A stretch of 46,660 nt of DNA from Escherichia phage aalborv: sequence record NC_049829.1, one strand, 5' to 3'. The notes beneath the pieces are model-generated. The model saw only the letters and a program-made list of their open reading frames with translations. It had not been told where the DNA came from and did not search any database. This document shows positions 24,318 to 37,201 of the stretch, piece by piece (the first letter of the stretch is position 1; each line of letters begins with the position of its first letter). Both the position numbers and the translations under genes were made by a program.

Positions 24318-24330
24318 GAGAACTCCAAAT

Positions 24331-24356: not shown

Positions 24357-24362
24357 TATTTA

Positions 24363-24875
24363 TTAACCTGCTGAAGCTGCCGGAATTTTTTGCACCTGAA
24401 CCTCTACCAGCTTCAAGTCTTGAAACTTGGTGAAATCACCAGTCGCGATCCAGTTTGTTTCGATAGTGCCAGACGAGGTATCGACCTGACCATCATCAGA
24501 CAGTTTGATTGCAGTGCCGAAAGCTGGCGCGGAAGCGTCTTTAGCCAACATCCAAACACGCCCTTCAGTCATTACGTTGATTCCGCCGCCAGATTCATAA
24601 ATCATTCGACCGTCAGACGAAGTTGTCTGAAAGTGAGATCGAATTGCAACGCCGTAAGCCTTGCCGCTTGCCGCCATCGGCTTAATTAGCTTATTGCCCA
24701 TAGCGTCAACGCCGCCATGCTGGACCGCAACACCAACAAAAACAGACTGATTCTGATTGTCTGCTGCATTCTCAAGAACACAAGCGCCATCAATATTATA
24801 AGCTGAAGTGTCAGAAACCTGACCAGGTAACGCACGAGACATTACAGCAAAGTAGCTTGCTCCAATTGTAGCCAT
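24363..24875 (-). CDS. capsid-associated protein, decoration-like candidate (paralog 1)
   Basis: 170 aa; between scaffold-like and capsid genes; paralogous to 23883..24317. Confidence 0.4.
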   Translation of the reverse strand: MATIGASYFAVMSRALPGQVSDTSAYNIDGACVLENAADNQNQSVFVGVAVQHGGVDAMGNKLIKPMAASGKAYGVAIRSHFQTTSSDGRMIYESGGGINVMTEGRVWMLAKDASAPAFGTAIKLSDDGQVDTSSGTIETNWIATGDFTKFQDLKLVEVQVQKIPAASAG

Positions 24876-24887
24876 GTTTATTTCTCC

Positions 24888-26000
24888 TTATTTAAGTTTT
24901 TTCAAACGCGCAGTAGGATCAAGGGAGTCGGTTTTTTCACCCTTGCCAGATTCGAAAGAATCGCCCTTAACAGATTTACGCTGCGCCGCCATTTTATCAG
25001 ACTGCTTCGCAAGGTCAAAAGCCGTTTCAATATATGCATCGGCTTTTTCTGAAATATCCGCGCCAGTAACTTCTTTGACGTAAGCAACCTTGATCGCTTT
25101 AGCGTCCAAGCCGTCACACTTGATGCCAATTTCAGTTGCATCTGCAACCAGCTTGGCGTGTTCTTCTGCGTCAGTCTTTGCCTTCTTAACAGCTTCTGCA
25201 ATCTGCGCCGGAATGCCATCGACTTTAGTTTTCATGGCGTCGCGCTCGGCCTCAAGGCCATCAGCTTTTTCGGTTGCAGCTTTTGCATCTGCCTTTAACG
25301 CCTCAATATGATCAGCAACGGCCTTTGGAACATCAAATTCTACCGCGCCATCAAGTTTAATTTTTACTGTCATTTCCTCATCTCCTTTGTCATTTAGAAC
25401 CTCGTCACTATACGGAAAATCTTGTTCACTATCAAGATTTAATTTGGCAATGCCAGCACGACCACGAAAGACAAGCGCAATGTGGTTGACACGAATATTC
25501 GTCTGAATGGCGTCAAATTTGACCCAATCAGGAGAATCAGGCTTCCAGTCTTCTTTAAGGTCTTCATCAAATAAGTAATCACCAGTTTTATTGTTGCCCC
25601 ATCCTGGTTTATCAATATCAATTGATGTGTAACCAACTGAAATTTCAGCCGTATCTTTCTTTTTTGCGCTCTCAATTGCTCGCTTTGAGTAAATGCTTAA
25701 CGGAACTTCAACGCCAATTCCATTAGGAACACCAGCGCCAGCGCATGAACCAACAACAACCTGATCCGCATTATCTGGCGTCACTGTGACGTGACCGATA
25801 GTGATCGGCTTGCCTGCGAACGTGGCAAGGGAATCAGCTTTGAACACCTCTGACGCTGGTCTGAACTCTCGTCTGATTCCATACGGCGTGTGATACTCCT
25901 GCAAGCCAATTCGCGCCACAATTGGGCGATCCACTAAAAAGCCATTATCATCAAAATGCGCCTTAACCTGAACGCTATCAAATCTTTGTTTTGCCTTCAT
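24888..26000 (-). CDS. prohead protease / scaffolding-like protein
   Basis: 370 aa; globular N-terminal domain followed by long Ala/Lys/Glu/Asp-rich coiled-coil-like tail; position between head morphogenesis and capsid genes. Confidence 0.45.
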   Translation of the reverse strand: MKAKQRFDSVQVKAHFDDNGFLVDRPIVARIGLQEYHTPYGIRREFRPASEVFKADSLATFAGKPITIGHVTVTPDNADQVVVGSCAGAGVPNGIGVEVPLSIYSKRAIESAKKKDTAEISVGYTSIDIDKPGWGNNKTGDYLFDEDLKEDWKPDSPDWVKFDAIQTNIRVNHIALVFRGRAGIAKLNLDSEQDFPYSDEVLNDKGDEEMTVKIKLDGAVEFDVPKAVADHIEALKADAKAATEKADGLEAERDAMKTKVDGIPAQIAEAVKKAKTDAEEHAKLVADATEIGIKCDGLDAKAIKVAYVKEVTGADISEKADAYIETAFDLAKQSDKMAAQRKSVKGDSFESGKGEKTDSLDPTARLKKLK

Positions 26001-26003
26001 TAA

Positions 26004-26768
26004 TTACTCTCCTTTATTATTCCAATCTGGAATCGCCCAGCAACGGCAACCCCACGGCTCACCAGGGAAATCATGAATTGCATCAAGCGCTATTCTTTTA
26101 CCTTCCCATAACACATGCTGCAATCGCTCTCTATCATCTAACATTCCATGCCAGAAATAATGAGTTACCTTAGCATCGTAAAGGCGCTGGCGCATCAGGC
26201 GACTATTCCACGCGCCGATAATGTTTTCTGATCTTGTTTTGCCCCAAGAGCTATAAACAGCAAATCTCTTTTCTGCAAGATCATTAACCTGTTTATCATT
26301 GCTTCCGCGAAAGTTTGCATTGCGAATGTTTGTTGACCAGTCAGACACAATATTTGTGAACAACTTCCTTAGCGATGATTCTGTAAGCCCGTGCCATTGA
26401 CCGTAGAGCGTCTGATACCAATCCTCGTTAGCGTTAGCGCCAACCGCGATCAAAACAATTACCGCCGTATTATCCTTTCCGCCAGTTGACTTGGCAACAT
26501 TGATAAACTGCTTCGCATTGAATTTATAAATGGTCAACGCGATTGCAGGAAGAGTTGAAACAATGCCAGCTATAAGGTCAGTTGCCAGGCTGTTAATTTC
26601 ATCTTCTGCGCTGTTGATCTCATTATCTGTTGCGTCAAACTTCATCGCTTTTGTTCGCTTGCGCATGAGAATTACAAGATCTCTAATTGCCTCCTGAATT
26701 GAGCGGCTAAGTTGCCGCTCGCTTGCTTCAGGAAAGCGCCATTGTTTAACGACGCCATTCACTTTCAT
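26004..26768 (-). CDS. head morphogenesis / minor head protein (Mu F-like)
   Basis: 254 aa immediately downstream of portal with overlapping stop/start; Cys/Trp-containing C-terminal region. Confidence 0.55.
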   Translation of the reverse strand: MKVNGVVKQWRFPEASERQLSRSIQEAIRDLVILMRKRTKAMKFDATDNEINSAEDEINSLATDLIAGIVSTLPAIALTIYKFNAKQFINVAKSTGGKDNTAVIVLIAVGANANEDWYQTLYGQWHGLTESSLRKLFTNIVSDWSTNIRNANFRGSNDKQVNDLAEKRFAVYSSWGKTRSENIIGAWNSRLMRQRLYDAKVTHYFWHGMLDDRERLQHVLWEGKRIALDAIHDFPGEPWGCRCWAIPDWNNKGE

Positions 26769-28048
26769 TACTCATTCCCCTGTGTGCCTGGCTCCGGCTC
26801 CGCTGGCTCCGGTAGCTTGATTTTATTAGTGTCCTTTAGTTTAACGCTTGTGGCGATTGCTCGCAACGTGTCTCGCGCTTCTTCAACATCAAGGAACTGA
26901 CCATCAATAGCCTTGCTGATTGAGTCGATATTCTTATTCAGAATTTCAGCCTGATCTTTATCGCTAGGCACGCTCAAAGGTGAAAACTCAATGCTCCACT
27001 CCTGCTCACTAATGATGAACGGCAATAGAAATTCAAGGATAGGCTTGTAATCCTCAACGCGTTTTCTTTCAATCAGCTTATAGAATGTTTCAAGCGCCGT
27101 ATTTTGGCTTGCGCTAACGCCGCCAACGTTTTTATTTTTCAGGATGATTTCATGAATACCTGAAAGGGAAACTATGCGATCCATTTTCTTTTCCAGAAAA
27201 GAATCAACGCCGCTAATGTCAGAGTTAAGAATATCATATTCCTCATCCTCAGCATCAATACCAATGGCCTTGCCTACGCCGCCCTCATCGTCAACCTGCG
27301 CAAGCCTCAGACGTGCCGCGCTAACACCTTCCTCATCATCGCACAAGTCAGCGAGTCCTTTAGCCTTCCATACCGCCTGTTGTTTCCTACGCAATAATTG
27401 CGTGGCTAATGTTTCACAATAGTTATAATCAACAATAGCCTCAACAAGTCGCTTGTTGAGAACTGACTCACCCCAGCCATCATTGCTGCGTCGCTTTGCG
27501 TTAGGTATCCGCTCACCGTCGATAATGCAAACTCGCGTGTAGTGTACCTGGTATTCCGGCAAGTCTCCGCCTGGTGTTACAGTGTAAAGCACTGGCTCAC
27601 CATAGCGAACCTTGCGGGGATTAGTTTCGCGCGCTTCAACGCGAATCTGATAGCGATCGTAAACGCGCACATCTTCCAGAATAGCTCCAGGCTTTACAGG
27701 TGATTTGAGCGCTCGCCCATCCTGAACAAGAGCAATGATTGCAGATCCGCCAAACAAACGCGACCAGCAAAGCGCATCAATGATTTTTGCATTCAATCGC
27801 TTCTCATCCCACAAAGAACGGAATGCTGCCTCGTCTGCCACGCCGTCAACAGTAAAGCCAGGGGAAACCATTTCCTCTGGTACTACGTCAATAATCCTTT
27901 TTGCCAGGCCCTCTTTTTCGTAAAAGTCAGCAAGCGTCTTGTATGGCATTGACTGCATGTAGAATGGTTGCTCTGCTCGCGATTTGCAATTCTCGCCTTT
28001 AAAGATCTCGTTGTAGCCGTCAGCCTTAACGATTCGTGATTTACTCAT
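26768..28048 (-). CDS. portal protein
   Basis: 426 aa; immediately downstream of large terminase; GGAGG SD; acidic C-terminus. Confidence 0.8.
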   Translation of the reverse strand: MSKSRIVKADGYNEIFKGENCKSRAEQPFYMQSMPYKTLADFYEKEGLAKRIIDVVPEEMVSPGFTVDGVADEAAFRSLWDEKRLNAKIIDALCWSRLFGGSAIIALVQDGRALKSPVKPGAILEDVRVYDRYQIRVEARETNPRKVRYGEPVLYTVTPGGDLPEYQVHYTRVCIIDGERIPNAKRRSNDGWGESVLNKRLVEAIVDYNYCETLATQLLRRKQQAVWKAKGLADLCDDEEGVSAARLRLAQVDDEGGVGKAIGIDAEDEEYDILNSDISGVDSFLEKKMDRIVSLSGIHEIILKNKNVGGVSASQNTALETFYKLIERKRVEDYKPILEFLLPFIISEQEWSIEFSPLSVPSDKDQAEILNKNIDSISKAIDGQFLDVEEARDTLRAIATSVKLKDTNKIKLPEPAEPEPGTQGNE

Positions 28049-28061
28049 TATCTTTCCTCCA

Positions 28062-28088
28062 ATAAAAAAGGCTGGATTTACCAGCCTT
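28062..28088 (-). terminator. intrinsic terminator between large terminase and portal genes
   Basis: Stem GGCTGG..CCAGCC followed by TTTTTT on minus strand. Confidence 0.6.
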
Positions 28089-28122
28089 TGATTATATATT
28101 GGTTTGTCGATTCGTGCTATTT
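28085..28122 (-). promoter_or_regulatory. truncated motif element (AAATAGCACGAAT) plus TATAAT at terminase-portal junction
   Basis: Large terminase stop TAG lies in AAATAGCAC; TATAAT at 28091..28096; terminator follows. Confidence 0.35.
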
Positions 28123-29685
28123 GTTCCGCAAACCTGCCAATTTTTTCATTCTTCCTACCGGATCATCTGCCATGTTCATTTCAATGTTAACCGCATCAAT
28201 GATGTTATCAACAATATCATCATGAGGATGCGAATCATCGAATGTAAACGCCGCAACTTCAGCGAGTATCTCAGCCAGCATATGATGCGATTCTGGAAGT
28301 GCTACGCGTCCGGCGCGCATTACTGGCGCTGCGTCCATTGCTCGCGTAACCTTATCTTTATCTCGCTGAACGGGATTGATCTTGATCATGATTTTTTTCG
28401 CTGCACTCTGAATCAAACCAGTGCCAGACGATTTATCTTCAACATGAATCCTTCTCAACGTTCCGCATTCTTTATTGCGCTTCCAGCACTGATTAACGAA
28501 TGCAACAAAATTCGTCTCAAGGTCCGGTGCTTCCCATTTTCCGCGAACACCATCAATGAAGTAAACGCGATCTTTATACATCCCCCAATAACAGATCACG
28601 GAGTAGTCGTTAAGCTCCCCTGTTTTCTGTGCGGTATCAACCGTGATAAATGTATATTCAAAGCGATCCGGTTTTGGTAGCGTGCATTTCTCGCTGCTGC
28701 CGTAATACTGAAACCACTCTGTTTTAAACACGTTACCGCCAAGCGCAACAGGCTGTTGCTGATACTGACTAGCGAACGTGTACGGATCAGCATTGCGAAG
28801 CGCAAGCAATTCCTCCGCGCTTTCCTTAGCAGGCCAGAATGAATAATGAGCAACGCCATCAATCATCACTGGCTTACTGGACAAAACATCGCGATCAAAC
28901 TCAGGCTTTAACCAATCAGGAAGCGTTTCGCGATATTCCTTAGTAACGAGCGCCGGAATACTAACCACCTTAAACTTGATGCCGCCCATGCCGCCGTTTG
29001 TCATGAACCATGTTGAATCATTGACGTGTAGCCGTTGCTGGACCATTACGATGGGCGTTGTGTCCTTCATTCTACGCGATCGCACCGTGTTCTTTAGGCG
29101 CATGTGTCCGGCTTCTCGCTTTACCTTAGAAAGCATGTCATCCGGTTTGTCTGGATCATCAAGAACCAGCATACCAGTAAATCCATCGTCCATGTATCCG
29201 CCACGCAGACCAGTAACCTGACCACCGATAGAACGCGAGTTAACTTGTAATTTAACCTTGCCGCCATCGGTTACAATCAAATCCTTTGCGCTCGCCTTTG
29301 CCAGCTTTCCAGGCCATAGCTCCTGCCATTCTGGAGAACCAATAATCTCCTTAATTCGGTTGCTATTCTGCTGGACAAGGCCATCACTAAACGAAAGATT
29401 AAGATTTCGCACCTTCTTACTTTTCAATGACGCATAAGGTGACATATGGATCGAGAATATCTCTGTTTTACCGCTGCCTGGCGTTATGTTGAAAATTACA
29501 TTCTGTGACTCGCCTTTGATGATTTTTTCAACTTCGCTGCATAGGTAGCTGAAATGCCAGTTTCCTAAGAATTTCTGACCTTGCAATAATTGAAACCAAA
29601 TGCGGATCATCTTTTCGAATGAATATTCGCTCATTTCCTTAACGGCGCGTTTCTGCGCCGCTGTTAAGTCTTCCCAAATCAGCAT
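28117..29685 (-). CDS. terminase large subunit
   Basis: 522 aa; Walker A-like NITPGSGKTE; C-terminal nuclease-like acidic residues; start overlaps stop of small subunit. Confidence 0.85.
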   Translation of the reverse strand: MLIWEDLTAAQKRAVKEMSEYSFEKMIRIWFQLLQGQKFLGNWHFSYLCSEVEKIIKGESQNVIFNITPGSGKTEIFSIHMSPYASLKSKKVRNLNLSFSDGLVQQNSNRIKEIIGSPEWQELWPGKLAKASAKDLIVTDGGKVKLQVNSRSIGGQVTGLRGGYMDDGFTGMLVLDDPDKPDDMLSKVKREAGHMRLKNTVRSRRMKDTTPIVMVQQRLHVNDSTWFMTNGGMGGIKFKVVSIPALVTKEYRETLPDWLKPEFDRDVLSSKPVMIDGVAHYSFWPAKESAEELLALRNADPYTFASQYQQQPVALGGNVFKTEWFQYYGSSEKCTLPKPDRFEYTFITVDTAQKTGELNDYSVICYWGMYKDRVYFIDGVRGKWEAPDLETNFVAFVNQCWKRNKECGTLRRIHVEDKSSGTGLIQSAAKKIMIKINPVQRDKDKVTRAMDAAPVMRAGRVALPESHHMLAEILAEVAAFTFDDSHPHDDIVDNIIDAVNIEMNMADDPVGRMKKLAGLRNK

Positions 29686-30206
29686 TATATCTTCTCCAGA
29701 ATGTCAATTACCGCCTCTTTGACTTCCTCCGCCGTTACAGCGTCAACGCTTGCGCTTGTGTTATTCTCAATGGTTACGGTTGCTGGCTTTTCAATGCCGA
29801 TCTCTTTACCAATGAATCCGGCGTTAACAATATTGTTTGCGGCAAGCTGGAATTTTTGCTCGTAAACAACGCCGTCGATAAAGTCCATAACATCGCTGAA
29901 TCCTGGCTCGCGTCGCCATTTTTCAAGCACGGAAGCAGAAAGGCCAGAGAATAAGCGGAACCCATTTAAGGTGAACACGCGCGGCTTGTGAATCTTGCTT
30001 TCGTATACATCACCTTGAAAGGATGCAGTTTCCGCAGCCTGTATATGGTTTTCCTCTGCCCACGTAAAGTAACGTACAGCCAGATCAAATACCTGTTCCG
30101 GCGTGTACTTGTGCGCCTTTGTCATTTTTGCAATATCGCCATATTGCTTATTATATAGTTTTTTAAAATTGCAAGCCTTTACGGCTGGCTCAACGTTTTT
30201 AGCCAT
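29685..30206 (-). CDS. terminase small subunit (by synteny)
   Basis: 173 aa ORF directly upstream of and overlapping large terminase; preceded by terminator and TATAAT. Confidence 0.55.
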   Translation of the reverse strand: MAKNVEPAVKACNFKKLYNKQYGDIAKMTKAHKYTPEQVFDLAVRYFTWAEENHIQAAETASFQGDVYESKIHKPRVFTLNGFRLFSGLSASVLEKWRREPGFSDVMDFIDGVVYEQKFQLAANNIVNAGFIGKEIGIEKPATVTIENNTSASVDAVTAEEVKEAVIDILEKI

Positions 30207-30254
30207 AATGCGCCCTCCTTATAACAAAGACTCATTATAGACAAATTGCAGGCA

Positions 30255-30279
30255 ATAAAAAACCCGCCATTTGGCGGGT
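30255..30279 (-). terminator. intrinsic terminator upstream of terminase operon
   Basis: Stem CCCGCC..GGCGGG followed by 6 T on minus strand. Confidence 0.6.
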
Positions 30280-30285
30280 AGTTGG

Positions 30286-30519
30286 TCAATACTTGTATTT
30301 TACTTTTTCATCTTCTTGATTCTCCAGGTGCTGATGGATTTTGCTACCAATCATCAGATAGTGACCGCGCACATCCCATCGCTGCATATTGTTATTCCAT
30401 GTCGCGCTTGCAAACTTCCCGTTCTTAGCAAGAAATTTGCAAATCTTTTCCGATGCGACAAGCAGAATAATTACAGCAAAAACAAAACCAATAACAAAAG
30501 CAGAAATTAAGTTCAACAT
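30286..30519 (-). CDS. small membrane protein (77 aa, N-terminal TM helix)
   Basis: Hydrophobic N-terminus LISAFVIGFVFAVIILLVA; GGGGAG SD. Confidence 0.5.
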   Translation of the reverse strand: MLNLISAFVIGFVFAVIILLVASEKICKFLAKNGKFASATWNNNMQRWDVRGHYLMIGSKIHQHLENQEDEKVKYKY

Positions 30520-30604
30520 GATACTCCCCTTACAAAATTGATTGAAAATTGATGCGTCTCTGGATCTGCACCTGATATAACTTTAGCACATTGAATCGCG
30601 TCAA

Positions 30605-30641
30605 CAGGATTTTGCGCTGAAATCTCGCATTCAAAATCCTG
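30605..30641. other. 10-bp perfect inverted repeat CAGGATTTTG..CAAAATCCTG with 17-nt spacer in noncoding region
   Basis: No flanking T-tract on either strand, so not a terminator; lies in a 515-bp stretch without convincing ORFs. Confidence 0.5.
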
Positions 30642-30900
30642 CCTACATGACTGGCAATTACGCCCCATTCACCTGATCGTCAGCTTTACTTTGTACTTCA
30701 TCTTTTACGATCTCTCGTTTGATGCAATTGATATTGTGCACGGTGTACAAGTATTCACCAATTCGAATGAATTTGCAATCATCATCAATTTCATCCTCAT
30801 TCACGGTAACAGAAAAGCTATTGCAAGGTAACCATTTAATGGATTCATCACCATACCGTCAAACATGAAAGTTAATTTGTACTTTTCCATATATTCACCT

Positions 30901-30942
30901 ATAAAAAAGGCGATACGTCTTACGGCAAAAACCTGCATATCG
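30901..30942 (-). terminator. intrinsic terminator after 31035..31265
   Basis: Stem GGCGATA..TATCGCC with long loop followed by TTTTTTAT on minus strand. Confidence 0.45.
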
Positions 30943-31034
30943 CCGTTGTTGCGTGGCAACCGCGCCACCCGTTCGGCCTTAGCCGCTCTTATGTAAACGA
31001 TTGATATGCTATCCAATCAGGAAATAGTTGTCAA

Positions 31035-31265
31035 TCATTCGCGGTCAAATGCGTTTCCCCATCTTCCACGAAGATAACCACATAACCAGATGAATTGGGT
31101 AATTGTCAGCATTGGCGCAACTGGCTGATAATGTTCGGCAATAATGCCCTTCATAACTTCATCAACATACTTCCCGCGCTTTTCAACATCCGCCTTCATT
31201 GCCTCGCCGCACTTCTTAGCTTGGCGTTTTGCAGCGTTGAATTGTGCCTCGCTCATTCCAAACAT
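31035..31265 (-). CDS. hypothetical protein (76 aa)
   Basis: ORF track; start overlaps stop of upstream micro-ORF (TAATG); terminator 30901..30942 follows. Confidence 0.5.
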   Translation of the reverse strand: MFGMSEAQFNAAKRQAKKCGEAMKADVEKRGKYVDEVMKGIIAEHYQPVAPMLTITQFIWLCGYLRGRWGNAFDRE

Positions 31266-31393
31266 TACAGACCTCTACCCTTCCACAAGTTGTACATTTC
31301 GAAATAGTGCATTGCCGTTTCAGTGTCGCCGCGCTCTAATGCTTCCTCTTGCTTATGTGCGCACCACTGCGACGGTTTTATGTAGTTATCCAT
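31265..31393 (-). CDS. hypothetical small protein (42 aa, MDNYIKPSQWCAHKQEE...)
   Basis: Not in track (<60 aa); AAGGTGA SD 5 nt upstream of ATG; stop overlaps downstream ATG. Confidence 0.4.
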   Translation of the reverse strand: MDNYIKPSQWCAHKQEEALERGDTETAMHYFEMYNLWKGRGL

Positions 31394-31409
31394 TGAATCA
31401 CCTTACCTA

Positions 31410-31458
31410 AAAAATGCCTCGTAAAAATGCGTCCTGTTCGCTGTATGAGGCATTCAAT
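31410..31458 (-). terminator. hairpin with T-tract after 31464..31775
   Basis: 8-bp stem AATGCCTC..GAGGCATT, 26-nt loop, followed by TTTTT. Confidence 0.4.
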
Positions 31459-31463
31459 TTTAA

Positions 31464-31775
31464 TTAAAAATCGTCGAGCAACTCACGAAAGTTGTTAAGC
31501 GTTGCAACTTTAGCGCAATCCCACTCCGTAGATCCAGCTTCTTCCCACGGAGAACCAGGCCCGTGATTTGTCATGTCGTCGATTAGTGATGAAATTTCAT
31601 CAACAACAATCTCTTTCAAATGCTCTCGGTGCTCTATATCTTCCACTGGCTCAAAAGCCTGAATTACACCACCCAAAACGCGTTGCTGTGCTTTCGCATC
31701 GTCGAGCGTATCGTAAATATTTCGGATCTGCTTGTTGGCAAACTTCCCGATCCCGTAAGTGTGAATGTAAATCAT
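31464..31775 (-). CDS. hypothetical acidic protein (103 aa)
   Basis: ORF track; terminator 31410..31458 downstream. Confidence 0.5.
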   Translation of the reverse strand: MIYIHTYGIGKFANKQIRNIYDTLDDAKAQQRVLGGVIQAFEPVEDIEHREHLKEIVVDEISSLIDDMTNHGPGSPWEEAGSTEWDCAKVATLNNFRELLDDF

Positions 31776-32080
31776 TTTAATTTCTCCACATCAACCATAG
31801 TGCAGCGAGAAACAACACCAGATACACGATCAACTTTCTTTTTGCTCTTTCGCTTCCAGTTGTGAACTTTTAAAGCCGTGTATCCATTCTCAGCAAGCCA
31901 TTTTGCAGTTTCTGCCGCGTCAGTCGGACGCGGTGAGAATTTTTGCTCAAGCTGAGTAAAAAGCTCTCTTGCAACCTCATGATCAATCATCATTTCATCA
32001 TCTGATCCGCAAAGTGCACGAGAACCTACAGCATGCAGGAGTTTCTTTGCTTGTTCTTCTGAAAGGTTAATCGTGATCAT
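31772..32080 (-). CDS. hypothetical protein (102 aa)
   Basis: Start set to ATG 32080 (MITINLSEE), which overlaps the upstream stop as ATGA; track start 32098 lacks SD. Confidence 0.5.
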   Translation of the reverse strand: MITINLSEEQAKKLLHAVGSRALCGSDDEMMIDHEVARELFTQLEQKFSPRPTDAAETAKWLAENGYTALKVHNWKRKSKKKVDRVSGVVSRCTMVDVEKLK

Positions 32081-32289
32081 TCTTCTACTACCTCGCATTC
32101 GTCATGGTTTACGCCGATGTTATCACCGATTCGAATTTCTTCTGTATTGCGGATTGCTAACACGCAGTAAGAACCATCGCGAAAGAATCCGTCAACCTCT
32201 ACAATGTCACCAACTTTGAACCCGCATTGCTCAAGGGTAATGCCTCCGTCGTTGCGGTCAATGTCAACCCTGGTGATTCGAATTTTCAT
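32077..32289 (-). CDS. hypothetical protein (70 aa)
   Basis: ORF track; GAGGAAA SD; driven by motif promoter 32316..32366. Confidence 0.5.
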   Translation of the reverse strand: MKIRITRVDIDRNDGGITLEQCGFKVGDIVEVDGFFRDGSYCVLAIRNTEEIRIGDNIGVNHDECEVVEE

Positions 32290-32315
32290 TTTGATTTCCT
32301 CTGTTTCGCTTCAAT

Positions 32316-32366
32316 GAGGACACTTTAACAAATGCCCTCGCGGAAGTTTTAACAAAAAATGCTGTT
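32316..32366 (-). promoter_or_regulatory. motif-type promoter (variant AACAGCATTTTTTGTTAAAA), -10 TAAAGT
   Basis: Motif 32347..32366; 22-bp spacer; -10 32322..32327. Confidence 0.45.
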
Positions 32367-32652
32367 AGCTCATGTAATAGATTTCATCGCGAACAAAATC
32401 GTCAAAATCAGATTGCGTCAATGGTCGATCCTCTAGTGCTGCCTGCTCAATCATTTCTACAAGGGCGCAATCCATATCAAGGTAATGAGCATCAAAATCA
32501 TACCATGAAGCCATTTCACGCGCCCATGAGCGGCAATTCTTGAATCCGTAACGTCTGATACAGTTTGCTGTATGAAATGAGTCATTCCAACCACGCTCAA
32601 GCGCTGCCTTTTCGAATGCGTTAATCAACATTTTGCGATAGCTTTTAGCCAT
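32365..32652 (-). CDS. hypothetical protein (95 aa)
   Basis: ORF track; AAGGAGG SD; stop TAA abuts promoter motif. Confidence 0.5.
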   Translation of the reverse strand: MAKSYRKMLINAFEKAALERGWNDSFHTANCIRRYGFKNCRSWAREMASWYDFDAHYLDMDCALVEMIEQAALEDRPLTQSDFDDFVRDEIYYMS

Positions 32653-32694
32653 TTGTTTCCTCCTTTTGGCGCCACCTAAGCGGCGCGGTTAACA

Positions 32695-32874
32695 TTACTT
32701 CTTTTTTCCGGTCAGCATGTATCGCTTACCGTCTTTGAATCCGTCACCATAGCCAGCATATCCGCCAGCCATGAAGATAATCAATCCGCCGATTGACTCA
32801 ACAATGCCGCTATATCCATAAGCCAGGTAGCAACCAGCGATAAGGGCAATAAAAATGATAATTACTCTTTTCAT
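32695..32874 (-). CDS. small membrane protein / possible lipoprotein (59 aa)
   Basis: Start at ATG 32874 (MKRVIIIFIALIAGCY), lipobox-like LIAGC; ATGA overlap with upstream interrupted frame. Confidence 0.45.
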   Translation of the reverse strand: MKRVIIIFIALIAGCYLAYGYSGIVESIGGLIIFMAGGYAGYGDGFKDGKRYMLTGKKK

Positions 32875-33233
32875 ACGTGATCCCATACATCGCACTTTTT
32901 GACAACCAGCAAACGCAGCTTGTAAGGTCGGAACTTGTGCAACTTTTTAGCGTACTCACGCGCTTCACTGTAGCTATTGAACTCCATAGCCCAAAAACCG
33001 AAAGCATCATCCGTCAGATATTCCCAATCGCCACTGATAACGCGGCGGCGTTGCAGGTAATAAATCTTGCATTCTGTGCAAGCAACGATCCGGTATTAAG
33101 GTTTAAAGATTCGTTTTAATGCGTTAAAAACCATAGTGCGGCCCTCACTGAATAAATAACTAAGAGAATCAAGAATAACACAATCATGATTTCATAAAAA
33201 TCAAACGGTGGCTTAGGATTGGTTGCGTTGTTG

Positions 33234-33638
33234 TTATTTCCCAGCATTTCGCGCAATCCCCTTGTACATGCCGTAAAGAACATTATCAGGCTTTTTGAAC
33301 TTGATCGCATTGCGCGCAAGTCGGCGCATACGTCGCGCATCGTATCGCGCTCGCTGAAATGGCATTTTCATTGTCTTAACATGGCAGCCGCGATGATCGC
33401 TGATTCGCTTAAGCTCAATCAAAACGCCTTGAGTTGCCTCTACGCAATAATGATCAAAGCCAAGTCGTCTAGTAATGATATAGCCATTCTTGATGCGTGG
33501 TCGGTTAAACTCTTTTAACGATCCGATATAGCGATCGGAAGCCGTTACAATCTCACCTTTACGAATGCCGCATCGCTCATCATATACCCAGGTTACAACA
33601 AATTTTGTGCCTACGCGGATTTTGTGAAGATCTAACAT
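33234..33638 (-). CDS. hypothetical basic protein (134 aa)
   Basis: Start moved to ATG 33638 (MLDLHKIRVG, AAAGGA SD) because track N-terminus lies upstream of promoter -10 (33669..33674). Confidence 0.5.
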   Translation of the reverse strand: MLDLHKIRVGTKFVVTWVYDERCGIRKGEIVTASDRYIGSLKEFNRPRIKNGYIITRRLGFDHYCVEATQGVLIELKRISDHRGCHVKTMKMPFQRARYDARRMRRLARNAIKFKKPDNVLYGMYKGIARNAGK

Positions 33639-33662
33639 GTTCAAGTCCTTTCGTTGATTGGT

Positions 33663-33714
33663 GTTTGCATTATAGCGAGGCATTGCGCCCCGCTTTTAGC
33701 AATTCGTGCTATTT
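33663..33714 (-). promoter_or_regulatory. motif-type promoter variant (AAATAGCACGAATTGCTAAAA), -10 TATAAT
   Basis: TTGCTA then 22-bp GC-rich inverted-repeat spacer then TATAAT (33669..33674). Confidence 0.5.
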
Positions 33715-34299
33715 GATCTTTGTGTGTTTCCACTGGACCGTTTTGATGATCTCGTCAACAGTCTTTTCTGGATCGCCATCAGTCATTGTGAAGTCGTAAT
33801 GCTTGGCGCGGTGATGGTATCCGCTCAGGTCAATATAGTTTCGTGAATCGCCATCAAACGTGAAGCCTTCGCGATGCAGTCGGCAAATGTGCACTTCATG
33901 GCCTGCCTTAACTAGCGGCTTGATTTCTTCAGGGAATCCGCCGTCACTAATTACAACAGCTAAATCTCTGTACATCTCGTGTACTTGCTCAACCATGCGA
34001 TTTCCGAAATATTGCTCGCCAAAAGCTGGCTTCATAACTTCTTCGCTAATCCAGATCATGAACTGGCGAGGCGACTTTCCTTGCAAGATTGCTTGGGGCT
34101 TTTCTTTCTGCTCGCGGTCGTTATACAGATTAATGAACTCGTCATATCGGTAAACGCCAAGCATGGAAAACGCAATATCAAACATAGGCTGTTTAAACGA
34201 CGCTTTAACGGCTGCGTAACGATGGCCCGTTAAGTATGCCGCAAGCGTATCCTTGCCAACTCCTGGCGGTCCGTTAAGGATGATAATGTCGCGTTTCAT
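33709..34299 (-). CDS. P-loop nucleotide kinase (dNMP kinase / polynucleotide kinase-like)
   Basis: Walker A GPPGVGKDT near N-terminus resembling T4 gp1 / Pnk kinase P-loops; stop TAG inside promoter motif. Confidence 0.55.
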   Translation of the reverse strand: MKRDIIILNGPPGVGKDTLAAYLTGHRYAAVKASFKQPMFDIAFSMLGVYRYDEFINLYNDREQKEKPQAILQGKSPRQFMIWISEEVMKPAFGEQYFGNRMVEQVHEMYRDLAVVISDGGFPEEIKPLVKAGHEVHICRLHREGFTFDGDSRNYIDLSGYHHRAKHYDFTMTDGDPEKTVDEIIKTVQWKHTKIK

Positions 34300-34301
34300 A
34301 T

Positions 34302-34418
34302 TTATTCACCTCTTGCTTTCAAGACAGTAATTTCTGTTGTCTCGCTTAAAACCTTGAAATTTCTATTCTCGCTTTTAATTGTCATATTGACAATCATAAC
34401 CCGACCGCGCTCTATCAT
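34302..34418 (-). CDS. micro-ORF (38 aa) translationally coupled to kinase gene
   Basis: Stop TAA immediately followed by kinase ATG; preceded by overlapping 30-codon ORF 34415..34507 (ATGA); weak SD. Confidence 0.25.
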   Translation of the reverse strand: MIERGRVMIVNMTIKSENRNFKVLSETTEITVLKARGE

Positions 34419-34517
34419 GTCGGCAAGCTCTCGAAGGTGACTTGCAGTTTTGGCAATCTCTTAGCTTTTTTCGTCAAATGGTGGCAATTGCATTTAGTTG
34501 TCTCCATGTCTGATTGT

Positions 34518-34568
34518 AGGCCTACTATACAGCAGGCCCGATAATCTGTTTTTGCAAAAAGTGCTATT
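34518..34568 (-). promoter_or_regulatory. motif-type promoter (variant AATAGCACTTTTTGCAAAAA), -10 TATAGT
   Basis: Motif 34549..34568; -10 at 34524..34529. Confidence 0.5.
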
Positions 34569-34743
34569 AAACAGAAAAATCATCATCATCTGGATCAATG
34601 GCCCAGGTGTCACCGTGGTCGTCGTACACAAAGTAATTGCCAGCACTCGACACATCGGCATGATAACGCTTTCCAGCGGTGAAACATTCGTTGACTTCCT
34701 CGCATTCACTACCCAGGAATTTAATCACTGTTGATTGCATCAT
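34567..34743 (-). CDS. small acidic protein (58 aa, C-terminus DPDDDDFSV)
   Basis: Not in track; GGAGG SD 9 nt upstream; stop TAA immediately precedes TAGCAC of promoter motif 34549..34568; preferred over track ORF 34494..34709, which reads through the motif. Confidence 0.45.
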   Translation of the reverse strand: MMQSTVIKFLGSECEEVNECFTAGKRYHADVSSAGNYFVYDDHGDTWAIDPDDDDFSV

Positions 34744-35362
34744 TTTTCAATTCCTCCACGCCGCAACGCAAACATTTACCATCAACCACACTAAAACAGT
34801 GCTCGCCTTCGCATTCGATTTTTGGCTTCAATTCATCCACGCCGTGCGATTGGATGTGATTATGTGGCTTGTCGTATTCCGTGACCTGATAGGTTGTGAT
34901 CCCCAGGCTGCGGAAGTGCTTAACCACGTTCGGCGAATCGTCAAAGGCGCAAACGATGTTCTCCAGGCCAATAGCTTGCAAGACTTCTTCTTTGATGATT
35001 GTATCTTTTCGATTGTCTTCCTTTCGGCGCATGATTAACGCGTCGTGCTTGATGCCGTTATAATTTAACCAGTCGCAGGTGTCAGCCATCACCTCATCGC
35101 TGCGTCCGGTCAGGATAACGATGGCAAATCCTGACATCCACAATCCGTTAACCACTGCAACCGTGCTCTTAATCGGCGAATCGCCAACAGCCGCTTTGTT
35201 GAACTCAGACCAGCTTTCTGTAAGGTGCAAATCTTCTGTCGGCAGCAGGTGCAAGCGATGCGTTCCATCTGATAACGTTCCGTCCAGATCAACAATAACA
35301 ATCGGCTTGCTCGTGGAAAAATGGTATTTGCTGCCAAAAAGTTCGAACTCGTATTTTTTCAT
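34721..35362 (-). CDS. HAD-superfamily phosphatase with C-terminal Cys4 zinc ribbon
   Basis: DxDGT motif (VIVDLDGTLSD) near N-terminus; C-terminal C-x3-C...C-x2-C. Confidence 0.6.
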   Translation of the reverse strand: MKKYEFELFGSKYHFSTSKPIVIVDLDGTLSDGTHRLHLLPTEDLHLTESWSEFNKAAVGDSPIKSTVAVVNGLWMSGFAIVILTGRSDEVMADTCDWLNYNGIKHDALIMRRKEDNRKDTIIKEEVLQAIGLENIVCAFDDSPNVVKHFRSLGITTYQVTEYDKPHNHIQSHGVDELKPKIECEGEHCFSVVDGKCLRCGVEELKNDAINSD

Positions 35363-35580
35363 TATTTCACTTCCTCAAATTCAGCAATTACCATAGCGTG
35401 TGCCATAACCTTAGTGCCTTCACCGCCGTTCAGGAACATGCGATGCCCCTTACTATTGCTCACATAAAAAGATCCGGTTGATGATTTCAACTTTTGCGCC
35501 ATATAGATTTCGCCAGGCTTGAACATGCCAGCGCAACCATAGTTAACGGAAATGCATTTCATCTTCTTGTTAATGTACAT
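35362..35580 (-). CDS. hypothetical protein (72 aa)
   Basis: Start moved to ATG 35580 because track TTG start lies inside promoter motif 35636..35655. Confidence 0.45.
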   Translation of the reverse strand: MYINKKMKCISVNYGCAGMFKPGEIYMAQKLKSSTGSFYVSNSKGHRMFLNGGEGTKVMAHAMVIAEFEEVK

Positions 35581-35604
35581 CGTTTTATCTTCTTCATTGA
35601 AAGT

Positions 35605-35655
35605 GAGGCCATTATACCTGGCCCCACATTTGAGTTTTAACAAAAAGTGCTATTT
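35605..35655 (-). promoter_or_regulatory. motif-type promoter, -10 TATAAT in loop of GGCC..GGCC inverted repeat
   Basis: Motif 35636..35655; -10 35611..35616. Confidence 0.55.
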
Positions 35656-35839
35656 AGAATTTTACCTCTTCCACAAGCTCAACCATTTTATAACCCAGCC
35701 GATAAGAGTCACCGAACAACAGCACCCCCATAAATTCATCGTGGCTTATTGACTCTTTGCCAACAGTTCTAAGCTCGCCGTTGTGAATCACAGTATCGCC
35801 GATCTTGATTTCTGATTTATGGACTAATTTCGTTTTCAT
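35654..35839 (-). CDS. hypothetical protein (61 aa)
   Basis: ORF track; AGGTGA SD; stop TAA abuts promoter motif. Confidence 0.45.
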   Translation of the reverse strand: MKTKLVHKSEIKIGDTVIHNGELRTVGKESISHDEFMGVLLFGDSYRLGYKMVELVEEVKF

Positions 35840-35854
35840 TTATTCACCTGCTAA

Positions 35855-36040
35855 TTAAAAGAAAGCTACATAGTTTGCAATGCCTTTGGCGTCGTCGTTT
35901 GGCATTGCTTTTACAGCCAGGTCATAACCTTCCTCTACCTTCTGCTTTGCTGTTTCTTCGTTGTAACCCCAGATAACCAGGATTTTAACTACGTTTTCTT
36001 TGTTCAGGATTTTAAGGTCTTTGGTGATGCGACGTGCCAT
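35855..36040 (-). CDS. hypothetical protein (61 aa)
   Basis: ORF track; GAGGAAAA SD within conserved 5'UTR (CATCGAAACGA) of promoter module 36067..36117. Confidence 0.5.
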   Translation of the reverse strand: MARRITKDLKILNKENVVKILVIWGYNEETAKQKVEEGYDLAVKAMPNDDAKGIANYVAFF

Positions 36041-36066
36041 TTTGTTTTCCTCAATCTCGTTTCGAT

Positions 36067-36117
36067 GAGGCTATTATGCCAGGCTTTTACACCTGGCTTT
36101 TAACAAAAAGTGCTATT
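36067..36117 (-). promoter_or_regulatory. motif-type promoter module, exact inverted copy of module 40786..40836
   Basis: Motif 36098..36117; spacer hairpin GCCAGG..CCTGGC; -10 CATAAT 36073..36078; conserved leader CATCGAAACGA. Confidence 0.55.
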
Positions 36118-36118
36118 T
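36073..36118. repeat. 46-bp exact inverted repeat of promoter module (partner 40785..40830)
   Basis: Reverse complement of 40785..40830 matches 36073..36118 base for base. Confidence 0.85.
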
Positions 36119-36379
36119 AATATCTGTTGTGACTTGCTGGTGCATTACGCTCTTTCCGCTGTTGTGCGTGCTATTCGTTGCGCCTTTGCAATTGGTGTAA
36201 TAGATCGCGCGACCGTTATCATAGAATCTGTATGCTGTGCATCCATCAACAGTGAACAGGCGACCGACTTTGAAATCTGACTCCACGCCTACGACAACCG
36301 TTGATTCCGATGCCTTTCGCATCCGGTCAGGGTAGCGATTGCAATCAAAACTCCAATTAATGCCTTGTTCATTATTCAT
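36113..36379 (-). CDS. hypothetical protein (88 aa)
   Basis: ORF track; stop TAG inside promoter motif 36098..36117. Confidence 0.5.
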   Translation of the reverse strand: MNNEQGINWSFDCNRYPDRMRKASESTVVVGVESDFKVGRLFTVDGCTAYRFYDNGRAIYYTNCKGATNSTHNSGKSVMHQQVTTDIK

Positions 36380-36842
36380 CCTCCATCTTTACCATCTCGT
36401 TAAGCATTTCATTCATTCGCTCAAGTGCGATTGCCGCACCTTCCAGGCGCTCGCCTTCAAGATCGCTGATTCGCGGCTGTGTTTTAAGCAGTTGAGCAAT
36501 AAACTTTGCTCGCCACTTGATTTCAAGTTTCGCTATATCATCTCCAGTCAGAACACGCGGTTTGCTTTTGGATTCTGTGAGCGCAAACACGAAACCATCA
36601 CCTTCATCAGTCACCTTGCGCTTAATGCTGATCACGCCTTTTTGCTTCACTTCAGGTACGCGGTTGACAACCTGGCGCATGTACGATGCCGTAATTGCTT
36701 CGCCGTTCTCCACATTAGCGCACAAAAAAAGTGCTGGCATGAATACATTATTACGCTCACCACTACCAATTGCCGCGCCCAAGTCGCGAAGCATATCGCA
36801 GAACTCACTACGCGACATATAACTAATATTTTCTTCATTCAT
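36372..36842 (-). CDS. hypothetical protein (156 aa), first gene of leftward operon
   Basis: Start set to ATG 36842 (MNEENISYM, AAGGAG SD); sigma70-like TTGACA-17-AATAAT promoter 36873..36907. Confidence 0.5.
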   Translation of the reverse strand: MNEENISYMSRSEFCDMLRDLGAAIGSGERNNVFMPALFLCANVENGEAITASYMRQVVNRVPEVKQKGVISIKRKVTDEGDGFVFALTESKSKPRVLTGDDIAKLEIKWRAKFIAQLLKTQPRISDLEGERLEGAAIALERMNEMLNEMVKMEDE

Positions 36843-36872
36843 GGCGTCTGCTCCTTTTGTTGCGTTTAAACT

Positions 36873-36907
36873 GGATGCATTATTTCCTTGCCTTTCCTGC
36901 ATGTCAA
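36873..36907 (-). promoter_or_regulatory. sigma70-like promoter TTGACA-17-AATAAT for leftward operon
   Basis: -35 at 36902..36907, -10 at 36879..36884 (minus strand); 30-nt leader with AAGGAG SD. Confidence 0.5.
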
Positions 36908-37185
36908 TATATTTTGTGTTTTAATAACAATTTTTGGCATGTGGCGCGTTTAAAGATAACAAAATGCACTACTTAAGTTATTGGTTTAACAGATAAAAGC
37001 GACCCTGTTGACCTGGTTGACGGAGTATTGCCGCTACCCCATATATATACATACAAAAATCACCACACATCACCATTGATTAAAAAATATACAATCACAC
37101 ATACATATCACCACAAACAATACCACTCCACCACATACCCATAGAACAAGCTCAACAGTAAATAACAAATATAAATACATATATA

Positions 37186-37201
37186 ACTAACTTATTGATT
37201 T
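37186..37201. repeat. 16-mer ACTAACTTATTGATTT (copy B)
   Basis: Identical to 9289..9304. Confidence 0.8.

What the first reader, a model, noticed from the sequence alone, without database searches (positions are those of the whole stretch)
30520..31034. 515-bp structured region without convincing ORFs in the packaging-proximal part of the genome
Contains a 10-bp perfect inverted repeat with 17-nt spacer (30605..30641) adjacent to a TTGACG -35-like element, several GC-rich hairpins (30906..30960), and only short ORFs (for example a 29-aa hydrophobic peptide at 30801..30890 with AGGTGA SD). Candidates are a pac site or packaging recognition region, a regulatory RNA, or an operator.
Basis: seen in the sequence. 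Interest (0 to 1): 0.5.

Follow-up and report, generated by a model that had tools for sequence, protein, structure and literature searches.

The report
Promoter, structured leader RNA, two broken genes
The supposedly gene-free stretch of this T1-like phage holds two small conserved genes, each disabled here by a point lesion, plus a promoter that fires into a conserved folded leader RNA ending in a terminator; that RNA is shared across T1-like phages, absent from Rfam, and is not a DNA-packaging site.

Summary
The window is a T1-like coliphage (Drexlerviridae, Hanrivervirus) and all local genes are on the minus strand.

- **Coding content.** 72% of the interval is coding. Gene B (61 aa, phrog_2919; 30701..30513) has an in-frame TGA at codon 11. 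Gene A (77 aa; ATG 30890) is split by a 1-nt deletion. Both are intact in every relative examined.
- **Inverted repeat.** The 10-bp repeat lies inside gene B, occurs at chance frequency and is absent from two of the three relatives aligned over it.
- **Intergenic region (30891..31034).** This is the real feature:
  - a conserved sigma-70 promoter (TTGACA-17-TAGCAT);
  - a ~97-nt leader RNA (30999..30903) with a 5' box, two short hairpins and a long hairpin plus U6, an intrinsic terminator 2 nt before gene A's ribosome-binding site.
- **Support for the RNA.** 16 of 20 base pairs show compensatory changes. The promoter, box and two hairpins recur in all five Drexlerviridae lineages sampled. Rfam has no match.
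- **Mechanism and pac.** The most likely mechanism is a promoter-proximal attenuator or antitermination leader for the small operon ahead of terS; this is inferred, not shown. The literature places the T1-type pac site in an AT-rich region, here about 6 kb upstream.

The parts
31006..31034 (-). Sigma-70 promoter: TTGACA (31034..31029), 17-nt spacer, TAGCAT (31011..31006). The -35 hexamer overlaps by one base the TGA stop of the upstream T1p59-like gene.
   Evidence: Consensus scan, 10 of 12 matches. The -35, the spacing and a TAnnnT -10 are conserved in 77 of 85 Drexlerviridae loci by a strict regex. The equivalent site is annotated 'promoter' in the KpV522 record.
30903..30999 (-). About 97-nt leader RNA (covariance-model match): 5' box, HP1, HP2, and HP3 with a U-tract.
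   Evidence: Model R1 scores 113.9 bits and finds a single copy in the window. Homologues are found in Henuseptimavirus, Tlsvirus and Tunavirus. 16 of 20 pairs are compensatory and 98.3% of cells are paired, against 26-52% in slid controls. No Rfam match.
30986..30999 (-). 5' box CGUUUACAUAAGAG. It starts 7-8 nt after the -10 hexamer, so it is the predicted start of the transcript.
   Evidence: CGTnnAC(A)yAmGAG follows the -10 at a fixed distance in all lineages. It occurs only once in the window.
30974..30985 (-). HP1: CGGC-UAAG-GCCG.
   Evidence: All 4 pairs show compensatory changes across the family, for example GCUC/GAGC, GCGG/CCGC and UGUGU/ACACA.
30953..30968 (-). HP2: GUGGC-GCGGUU-GCCAC, preceded by a conserved AACG.
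   Evidence: At least 10 distinct, perfectly complementary stems. Loops are conserved as GCGAUA, GCGGA or GCUUA.
30903..30944 (-). HP3: a 9-bp outer stem (GGCGAUAUG/CGUAUCGCC), a conserved internal loop GUAAGA and a short inner stem, followed by U6. Together these form an intrinsic terminator.
   Evidence: Folds alone at -15.5 kcal/mol, z = -2.5. 7 of 9 outer pairs are compensatory. The T-run is 5-9 nt in Hanriver-/Warwick-type relatives. Tlsvirus and Tunavirus have a hairpin with CCGUAA in the loop at the equivalent place but no U-tract; in Webervirus the first gene follows HP2 directly.
30658..30890 (-). Gene A, 77 aa in relatives, with its Shine-Dalgarno AGGUGA at 30900..30895. Here it is frameshifted by a 1-nt deletion between 30828 and 30827. 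What remains is the 29-codon ORF 30890..30801 and a GTG-started 48-codon remainder 30804..30658.
   Evidence: Alignment A1 column 227. Every relative that carries this gene has it intact; the Henuseptimavirus loci have an unrelated 55-aa gene in its place. The length is fixed at 231 nt in three diverged lineages, with an excess of third-position changes. Translation.
30513..30701 (-). Gene B, 61 aa, phrog_2919. It has an in-frame TGA at 30671..30669 (codon 11, CGA in relatives). An ATG follows directly, giving the 51-aa ORF 30668..30513.
   Evidence: Translation. phrog_2919 is matched over profile positions 1-60 of 60 by the full-length form. Homologues are all 60-61 aa. The AlphaFold2 model is beta-beta-alpha-beta at pLDDT 90, and the lost residues form strand 1.
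30605..30641 (.). It lies inside gene B, is chance-level and is absent from two of the three relatives aligned over it.
30286..30519 (-). Gene C, a 77-aa membrane protein (DUF7299). It is intact and is the last gene of the small operon.
   Evidence: Pfam PF23973, E = 3.7e-30.
30234..30279 (-). Intrinsic terminator (30279..30262 plus a T-run), then a conserved TATAAT (30239..30234), lying 28 nt upstream of the terS ATG at 30206.
   Evidence: Scan. The terminator followed by TATAAT (one locus has TATACT) is conserved upstream of terS in 17 distinct sequences, several of them with TGnTATAAT.
31035..31265 (-). Upstream neighbour: a 76-aa homologue of T1p59 (phrog_303). It is the last gene of the early small-gene cluster.
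   Evidence: tblastn finds it in 833 phage records. Shfl1 and Sazh annotation notes name T1p59. PHROG match.

Best explanation
On the minus strand the interval has two components.

**Two small conserved phage genes.** Each is inactivated in this genome by a single lesion, which is why no convincing ORF is visible.

**A 144-bp control region.** A conserved sigma-70 promoter sits at the end of the early small-gene cluster. It initiates a transcript of about 97 nt, made of a conserved 5' box, two short hairpins with conserved loops, and a long hairpin followed by U6.
- The last element is an intrinsic terminator placed 2 nt before the ribosome-binding site of the first downstream gene.
- Genes A, B and C can therefore be transcribed only by polymerases that read through it. 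This holds whether they start at this promoter or arrive from the early operon.

**Most likely mechanism (inferred, not shown).**
- The unit is a promoter-proximal attenuator or antitermination leader.
- By default a short RNA is released at the terminator.
- The conserved box and hairpins are the recognition surface for a host or phage factor, or for RNA polymerase itself, that sets read-through or transcript fate for the mini-operon ahead of the terminase genes.
- The logic resembles lambda PR'-6S RNA-tR' or nut/put leaders, but there is no homology to them.
For: **Shown**
- Gene orientation and phage identity.
- Both genes are intact and conserved in relatives, and the window-specific lesions are identified.
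- The promoter matches consensus. The promoter plus +1 box is present in 77 of 85 loci spanning Hanriver-, Warwick-, Henuseptima-, Tls-, Tuna-, Weber- and Rogunavirus.
- HP1 and HP2 appear in single-sequence minimum-energy folds of nearly all 49 unique leaders.
- Covariation is strong: 16 of 20 pairs are compensatory, and the covariation score is 0.472 against 0.166 in shuffles and at most 0.073 in slid controls.
- There are 31 G.U cells against 9 unpaired cells, so the folding strand is the transcribed sense.
- HP3 plus the U-tract folds stably. The U-tract ends at 30903, and the Shine-Dalgarno is at 30900..30895.
- Indels of 2 and 17-18 nt, and variable T-run length, rule out coding through the leader.
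- There is only one copy in the window.
- Between the early promoter (36907..36879) and HP3, the simple minus-strand scan finds only one weak terminator-like site, at 33082.

**Inferred**
- Read-through must occur, because A-C have no room for a promoter of their own and are under purifying selection in relatives.
- The function is at the transcript or transcription level rather than gene-specific. The first downstream cargo differs: a 77-aa gene, a 55-aa gene, the phrog_2919 homologue directly in Webervirus, or a tRNA in Rogunavirus.
Against: - There are no experimental data: no mapped transcription start or 3' end, and no measured termination efficiency.
- No alternative antiterminator pairing was found in the leader, by inspection.
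- No N-, Q- or put-like homologue was identified.
- terS has its own conserved TATAAT promoter just after the next terminator. Processive antitermination into the late genes is therefore not required.
- The U-tract on HP3 is present only in the Hanriver, Warwick and Henuseptima group. In Tlsvirus, Tunavirus and Webervirus the leader is simply a 5' UTR, so termination control cannot be the ancestral or universal role of the box and hairpins.
- The whole-leader fold energy is not exceptional (z = -1.4 to -1.8).
- Alignment A5 was fitted to the model, which inflates the pairing counts somewhat.
Confidence: 0.6

Rival explanations
1. Stand-alone trans-acting small RNA. The ~97-nt terminated transcript is the functional product, for example an Hfq-type regulator or a decoy for a host factor, and read-through is incidental.
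For: - Strong promoter, conserved single-stranded 5' box, an ARN-like CAACAAC linker, and a terminator with U6-U9.
- There is a precedent: the StxS sRNA produced by early termination at a phage late promoter (PMC7547250).
Against: - In Tlsvirus, Tunavirus and Webervirus the same box and hairpins are not followed by a U-tract terminator and run into an ORF.
- The box varies at positions a seed would need, for example ACAUAAGAG, ACAGACGAG, ACACAAGAG and AUAAAAG.
- There is no enriched complementary site in the phage genome.
- Genes A-C need read-through.
Confidence: 0.2
2. Passive juxtaposition. HP3 is just the terminator of the early operon, the promoter is an ordinary internal promoter, and the conserved hairpins merely stabilise or process the 5' end of the mRNA. 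There is no regulated switch.
For: - HP3 is the first convincing terminator downstream of the early promoter.
- T1-like genomes are described as strings of promoter/terminator modules (PMC11447400).
- The 5' CGU can pair with the conserved ACG after HP1, partly burying the 5' end.
Against: - The order promoter, then leader, then terminator is the reverse of the terminator-then-promoter order seen before terS. It forces this promoter's own transcripts into the terminator.
- Loop sequences (GCGAUA or GCGGA; CCGUAAG) are conserved while the stems covary, which points to specific recognition rather than generic stability.
Confidence: 0.17
3. pac site or packaging recognition region for the small terminase subunit, or an operator formed by the 10-bp inverted repeat.
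For: - It lies about 0.3-0.8 kb upstream of terS.
- Many headful phages have pac in or near terS (general knowledge).
- The inverted repeat exists.
Against: - The repeat is chance-level, lies inside a coding sequence and is absent from G29-2 and B1.3.
- T1-like pac sites are placed in the AT-rich UTR at the start of the small-gene cluster, with ATATA repeats proposed (PMC7718038, PMC8421802, PMC11447400). The matching region here is 37040..37230.
- The G.U asymmetry and the fixed promoter spacing point to an RNA rather than a duplex-DNA site.
Confidence: 0.03

Closest known systems
Lambdoid late control region PR'-6S RNA-tR' with Q antitermination, and the StxS sRNA derived from it
   Same: - A constitutive-looking sigma-70 promoter is followed within about 100 nt by an intrinsic terminator, so a short structured RNA is the default product.
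- Downstream genes need read-through.
- It sits at the boundary before the packaging and morphogenesis genes.
   Different: - No Q homologue or Q-binding element was identified.
- The cargo is three small accessory genes, and terS has its own promoter.
- The conserved part is the box and two hairpins, not the terminator, which is lineage-specific.
- There is no sequence or Rfam relationship.
Lambda N/nut (boxA-boxB) and HK022 put processive-antitermination RNAs
   Same: A promoter-proximal linear box is followed by short hairpins whose loops are conserved while the stems covary.
   Different: - The transcribed strand has no boxA consensus. CGCTCTTA occurs only antisense, at 30984..30991, and is not conserved in other genera.
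- Loops are GCGAUA or GCGGA rather than lambda's GAAAA-type.
- No N-like arginine-rich protein was found. Gene B folds as beta-beta-alpha-beta.
- The function is untested.
Hfq-type bacterial or phage sRNAs with a Rho-independent terminator
   Same: Length of about 97 nt, a single-stranded 5' end, an ARN-like linker and a 3' hairpin with a U-tail.
   Different: It is not terminated in several genera, and it abuts a ribosome-binding site, so it is also a 5' leader.
pac sites of headful phages (P22, Sf6, SPP1; T1)
   Same: Proximity to terS.
   Different: - No conserved duplex-DNA motif.
- T1-like pac is mapped or placed several kb upstream in an AT-rich region.
- The element here is an RNA-type structure.

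Membership tests
pac site (headful packaging initiation site) | Terminase cleavage or a read-start pile-up at the site in virion DNA. | not testable with these tools
   No read data are available.
pac site (headful packaging initiation site) | Position consistent with pac as mapped in related T1-like phages. | tested here: not met
   The literature places pac in the UTR at the genome start, with ATATA repeats (PMC7718038, PMC8421802, PMC11447400). The corresponding AT-rich region is 37040..37230, about 6 kb away.
pac site or operator | The proposed recognition repeat is conserved in relatives and exceeds chance. | tested here: not met
   Absent in G29-2 and B1.3. 3 observed against 1.8 +/- 1.8 expected.
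Sigma-70 promoter | -35 and -10 hexamers at 16-18 nt spacing, conserved across relatives. | tested here: met
   TTGACA-17-TAGCAT. TTGACN-17/18-TAnnnT is found in 77 of 85 loci.
Sigma-70 promoter | Experimentally mapped transcription start. | not testable with these tools
   No transcriptome for a Drexlerviridae phage turned up in two literature searches.
Intrinsic (Rho-independent) terminator | A GC-rich stem immediately followed by a U-tract on the transcribed strand. | tested here: met
   GGCGAUAUG...CGUAUCGCC plus U6 at -15.5 kcal/mol. The hairpin is long and branched, so the simple scan missed it. Its efficiency is unknown.
Conserved structured RNA | Base pairs maintained by compensatory substitutions. 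| tested here: met
   16 of 20 pairs, with shuffled and slid controls far lower. There are at least 10 distinct HP2 stems.
Any Rfam 15 family | A covariance-model match. | tested here: not met
   No hit on the leader at E <= 10 in the window, nor at E <= 1 in five other genera.
Lambda nut site | boxA (CGCUCUUA) 5' of a boxB hairpin with a GNRA-like pentaloop, on the transcript. | tested here: not met
   A boxA-like string occurs only on the antisense strand and is not conserved. HP2 loops are GCGAUA, GCGGUU or GCGGA.
Riboswitch-type or leader-peptide attenuator | A mutually exclusive antiterminator pairing, or a conserved leader ORF. | tested here: inconclusive
   No conserved alternative pairing was seen by inspection of the folds. 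The upstream in-frame AUG in HP3 is broken by indels in relatives. This was not searched exhaustively.
Protein-coding genes (gene A, gene B) | ORF length and frame conserved across diverged relatives, third-position bias, and a family match. | tested here: met
   In the window itself both are interrupted.

The most novel reading that the evidence does not exclude
The promoter-linked 5' box plus HP1 and HP2 (plus a CCGUAA hairpin) is a previously undescribed, family-wide cis-acting RNA of T1-like phages. It reprograms or recruits RNA polymerase or a small phage protein, in the manner of put or nut processive antitermination. It would govern the hand-over from the early small-gene cluster to the packaging and morphogenesis genes, whose regulation in T1 is, to my knowledge, still unexplained.
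Probability: 0.2. Interest if true: 0.75.

Novelty: new variant of a known kind. Interest (0 to 1): 0.45.

Why it matters
T1-like phages (Drexlerviridae) are very common coliphages and Klebsiella phages, used in therapy collections and notorious as laboratory contaminants. To my knowledge their temporal gene control is essentially unknown.

- A strongly covarying RNA leader tied to a conserved promoter, just upstream of the terminase genes, gives a concrete and testable handle on that regulation. It is present in all five lineages sampled and absent from Rfam.
- The analysis corrects gene starts in public records, where a 100-103-aa ORF is read through the leader hairpins and the U-tract.
- It shows that this isolate carries two knocked-out accessory genes.
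- It redirects any search for the pac site to the AT-rich region about 6 kb upstream.

Tried and rejected
- **Rfam.** Searches of the window region and of five other genera found nothing on the leader. The only hits were terminator-like weak matches at 30241..30355 and a tRNA in phiKP26.
- **tRNA or tmRNA.** None in the window.
- **Second copy of the leader.** None in the window, as would be expected for a nutL/nutR-style pair. The next hits score 12 bits or less.
- **Target for the 5' box.** A complementary site in the phage genome was sought; 13 matches against 13.1 expected.
- **boxA resemblance.** CGCTCTTA at 30984..30991 is on the wrong strand and not conserved, so it was rejected.
- **Kissing interaction between the HP2 loop and the HP3 internal loop.** It works for CGGU/ACCG in the window lineage but not for GCGAUA lineages, so it was rejected (by inspection).
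- **Pairing of the 5' box with the U-tract.** It appears in the minimum-energy fold, is AU- and GU-rich, and is absent in Tunavirus. It is left as unproven.
- **The TLS-type 19-nt direct repeat.** It is abundant in the window, but no copy lies inside the finding.
- **Function of gene B.**
  - Pfam found nothing, PHROGs gave only 'unknown function', and PDB sequence search found nothing.
  - It is not a zinc ribbon, despite its CxxC motif.
- **Literature.**
  - Searches for a Drexlerviridae transcriptome or sRNA found nothing relevant.
  - The Rtp genome paper is not held in the library.
  - fEg-Eco19 turned out not to be a relative.

Full report
**Context**

The window is a T1-like siphophage. 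A 1.1-kb stretch around the finding is 92-95% identical to Escherichia phages aaroes, vojen, damhaus and G29-2 (Drexlerviridae, Tempevirinae, Hanrivervirus). All genes near the finding are on the minus strand:
- TerL, 28117..29685;
- TerS, 29685..30206;
- an intrinsic terminator, 30279..30262;
- a chain of small overlapping ORFs upstream of that.

**Checking the observation**

The 10-bp perfect inverted repeat (30605..30614 / 30632..30641, 17-nt spacer), the neighbouring TTGACG on the minus strand, the GC-rich hairpins and the 29-codon ORF behind AGGTGA are all present.

The inverted repeat is unremarkable:
- Perfect 10-bp inverted repeats with a 3-30 nt spacer occur 3 times in the window, against 1.8 +/- 1.8 in first-order Markov simulations.
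- The window holds 39 inverted repeats of at least 10 nt within 40 nt.
- The repeat lies inside a coding sequence. It is present in aaroes but absent from G29-2 and B1.3, although the encoded protein is conserved in all three.

**The 'missing' ORFs**

Aligning relatives shows that 30520..30890 is coding on the minus strand.

Gene A:
- In relatives it is a 77-aa ORF starting at the ATG behind the AGGTGA Shine-Dalgarno (window 30890).
- The window has a 1-nt deletion (GGTTAC-CTTGC against GGTTACGCTTGC) between 30828 and 30827.

Gene B:
- It is a 60-62-aa protein (MKYKVKLTIRRMGRNC...) matching phrog_2919 over the whole profile.
- In the window, codon 11 is TGA (30671..30669) instead of CGA, leaving a 51-aa ORF from the next ATG.
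- All 11 database homologues are 60-61 aa.

Evidence that both genes are real in relatives:
- Their lengths stay fixed between diverged lineages (231 nt and 183-186 nt).
- Substitutions are concentrated at third codon positions, for example 27/25/44 and 15/12/28 by codon position.

**The intergenic region (30891..31034, minus strand)**

Directly after the stop codon of the upstream 76-aa gene lies TTGACA-17 nt-TAGCAT (31034..31006). That gene is a T1p59 homologue (phrog_303), present in 833 phage records.

Seven to eight nucleotides after the -10 hexamer begins a 97-nt element (30999..30903):

| Element | Sequence |
|---|---|
| 5' box | CGUUUACAUAAGAG |
| HP1 | CGGC-UAAG-GCCG |
| Linker | AACGG |
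| HP2 | GUGGC-GCGGUU-GCCAC |
| Linker | GCAACAAC |
| HP3 | 9-bp outer stem GGCGAUAUG/CGUAUCGCC, internal loop GUAAGA, short inner stem |
| Tail | U6 |

The U-tract ends 2 nt before gene A's Shine-Dalgarno.

The leader is not coding. Relatives carry a 2-nt indel in the HP1 loop, a 17-18-nt insertion that lengthens the inner stem of HP3, and T-runs of 5-9 nt. Several public records nevertheless annotate a 100-103-aa ORF that starts inside HP2 and runs through the terminator.

**Conservation and covariation**

- Within Hanriver-, Warwick- and Henuseptimavirus, the proposed helices are 97% paired with compensatory changes in HP2 and HP3.
- A covariance model built from these sequences finds exactly one copy in the window, at 113.9 bits. 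It also finds significant homologues in Henu7 (74.7 bits), Tlsvirus Sazh (32.8 bits, E = 3e-7) and Tunavirus Shfl1 (27 bits, E = 1.4e-5).
- I fetched 80 further loci through the T1p59 protein. Of 85 loci scanned, 77 carry TTGACN-16..19 nt (17 or 18 in every match)-TAnnnT-4..9 nt-CGTnnAC downstream of that gene, including Webervirus and Rogunavirus.
- Single-sequence folds of 49 unique leaders place HP1 and HP2 at the same positions.
- On the 33-sequence model alignment:
  - 16 of 20 pairs show changes on both sides;
  - 98.3% of cells are paired, against 26-52% when partners are slid;
  - the covariation score is 0.472, against 0.166 in shuffles and at most 0.073 when slid (with the caveat that the alignment is fitted to the model).
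- HP2 has at least 10 different perfectly complementary stems, while its loop stays GCGAUA, GCGGA or GCUUA.
- G.U cells (31) far outnumber unpaired cells (9), so the structure belongs to the transcribed sense strand.
- Rfam 15 has no match in any lineage.

**What differs between lineages**

- The U-tract after HP3 is present in Hanriver-, Warwick- and Henuseptimavirus.
- In Tlsvirus and Tunavirus a hairpin with CCGUAA in its loop sits at the equivalent place without a U-tract, and the leader runs on into the first ORF. In Webervirus the first gene follows HP2 directly.
- The first downstream cargo also differs:
  - the 77-aa gene A in Hanriver- and Warwickvirus;
  - an unrelated 55-aa gene in Henuseptimavirus;
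  - the gene B homologue directly in Webervirus;
  - a tRNA about 200 nt downstream in Rogunavirus.
- The leader is therefore tied to the promoter, not to a particular gene.

**Transcription context**

- A near-consensus promoter at 36907..36879 heads the minus-strand cluster of small early genes. Between it and HP3 the simple scan finds only one weak terminator-like site, at 33082.
- Downstream, the late region is punctuated by strong minus-strand terminators at 30279, 28089, 24355, 22812, 20166, 19444 and 16374. The count is 39 sites against 20 +/- 5 expected. This fits the 'transcripton' description of T1 quoted in PMC11447400.
- Between terminator 30279..30262 and terS there is a perfectly conserved TATAAT (30239..30234). 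In several genera it reads TGnTATAAT.
- terS therefore has its own promoter and does not need read-through from 31034.

**Mechanism**

Shown:
- a conserved promoter;
- a conserved, covarying RNA structure;
- a terminator-type hairpin with a U-tract abutting a ribosome-binding site.

Inferred:
- There is no room for another promoter, so genes A-C can only be expressed by polymerases that pass HP3.
- Because those genes are conserved in relatives, read-through must happen.
- The unit then behaves as a promoter-proximal attenuator that by default releases a ~97-nt RNA.
- The conserved box and loops are the likely recognition surface for whatever sets read-through or RNA fate.
- I found no mutually exclusive antiterminator pairing and no N-, Q- or put-like component. 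The factor and the exact mode remain unknown.

Rivals:
- the short RNA is itself a trans-acting sRNA;
- the arrangement is a passive juxtaposition of an early-operon terminator with an ordinary promoter and a stabilising 5' UTR;
- far behind these, pac or an operator.

**pac**

- Papers on T1-like phages place pac in the untranslated region at the beginning of the small-gene cluster (PMC7718038).
- ATATA repeats have been proposed for T1 (cited in PMC8421802).
- For TLS, pac was mapped by restriction analysis (PMC11447400). The paper does not give its position relative to terS; that it lies at the start of the deposited sequence is my inference from the record layout.
- The matching region in the window is the AT-rich divergent intergenic stretch 36907..37576, with (TA)n runs at about 37040..37230. 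That is about 6.9 kb upstream of terS.

**Verdict**

The finding as written is largely not upheld. The interval is not ORF-free, the inverted repeat is chance-level, and it is not pac. It does contain a genuine and apparently undescribed conserved leader RNA with its promoter and, in this lineage, a terminator.

Noticed in passing
window 216..41481 (20 sites, e.g. 35635..35653, 36098..36116, 37497..37515, 38371..38389): The 19-nt direct repeat ATAGCACTTTTTGTTAAAA occurs 20 times (up to 3 mismatches), against 2.5 expected. It is mostly upstream of genes in the early regions. It is the same element as the 21-nt repeat described for phage TLS, whose function is unknown.
   Followed up: partly
window 36907..37576, especially 37040..37230: An AT-rich divergent intergenic region with (TA)n runs lies between the leftward and rightward early gene clusters. 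A near-consensus promoter, TTGACA-17-AATAAT, sits at 36907..36879 on the minus strand. This is the best candidate for the T1-type pac or genome-start region.
   Followed up: partly
window 30234..30279: A terminator is followed immediately by a perfectly conserved TATAAT 28 nt upstream of the terS ATG. It is an extended -10 (TGnTATAAT) in several genera, but no -35 is conserved. It is probably a dedicated terS-terL promoter.
   Followed up: partly
window 30827/30828 and 30669..30671: Two independent inactivating lesions lie in adjacent small genes of one operon: a 1-nt deletion in gene A and CGA to TGA in gene B. The third gene (DUF7299) is intact. Either the accessory genes have really been lost in this isolate, or these are sequencing errors.
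   Followed up: yes
L001 1959..2261, L002 1959..2261, L012 1302..1604, L013 1302..1604: Public records (G292_00023, aaroes_43, slyngel_6, herni_51) annotate a 100-aa ORF whose first 23 codons run through HP2, HP3 and the U-tract of the leader. The start is probably wrong. The conserved product is 77 aa.
   Followed up: yes
phage records MG065636-MG065687 (hits H42-H51, H81): About 21 records named 'Campylobacter phage', with host given as C. jejuni, are about 97-99% identical to this E. coli T1-like phage region. They are probably mislabelled or contaminant genomes.
   Followed up: no
L086 1985..2286 (Escherichia phage phiKP26, Rogunavirus): The same promoter and a shortened leader are followed about 200 nt later by a tRNA gene (57.6 bits). 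In that subfamily the promoter therefore drives a non-coding cargo.
   Followed up: partly
window 9267..9336: A cluster of AT-rich near-palindromes (ATAAATATATATA / TATATATATTTAT and longer imperfect arms) lies in an intergenic stretch. Its role is unknown.
   Followed up: no
[not shown]
   Followed up: partly
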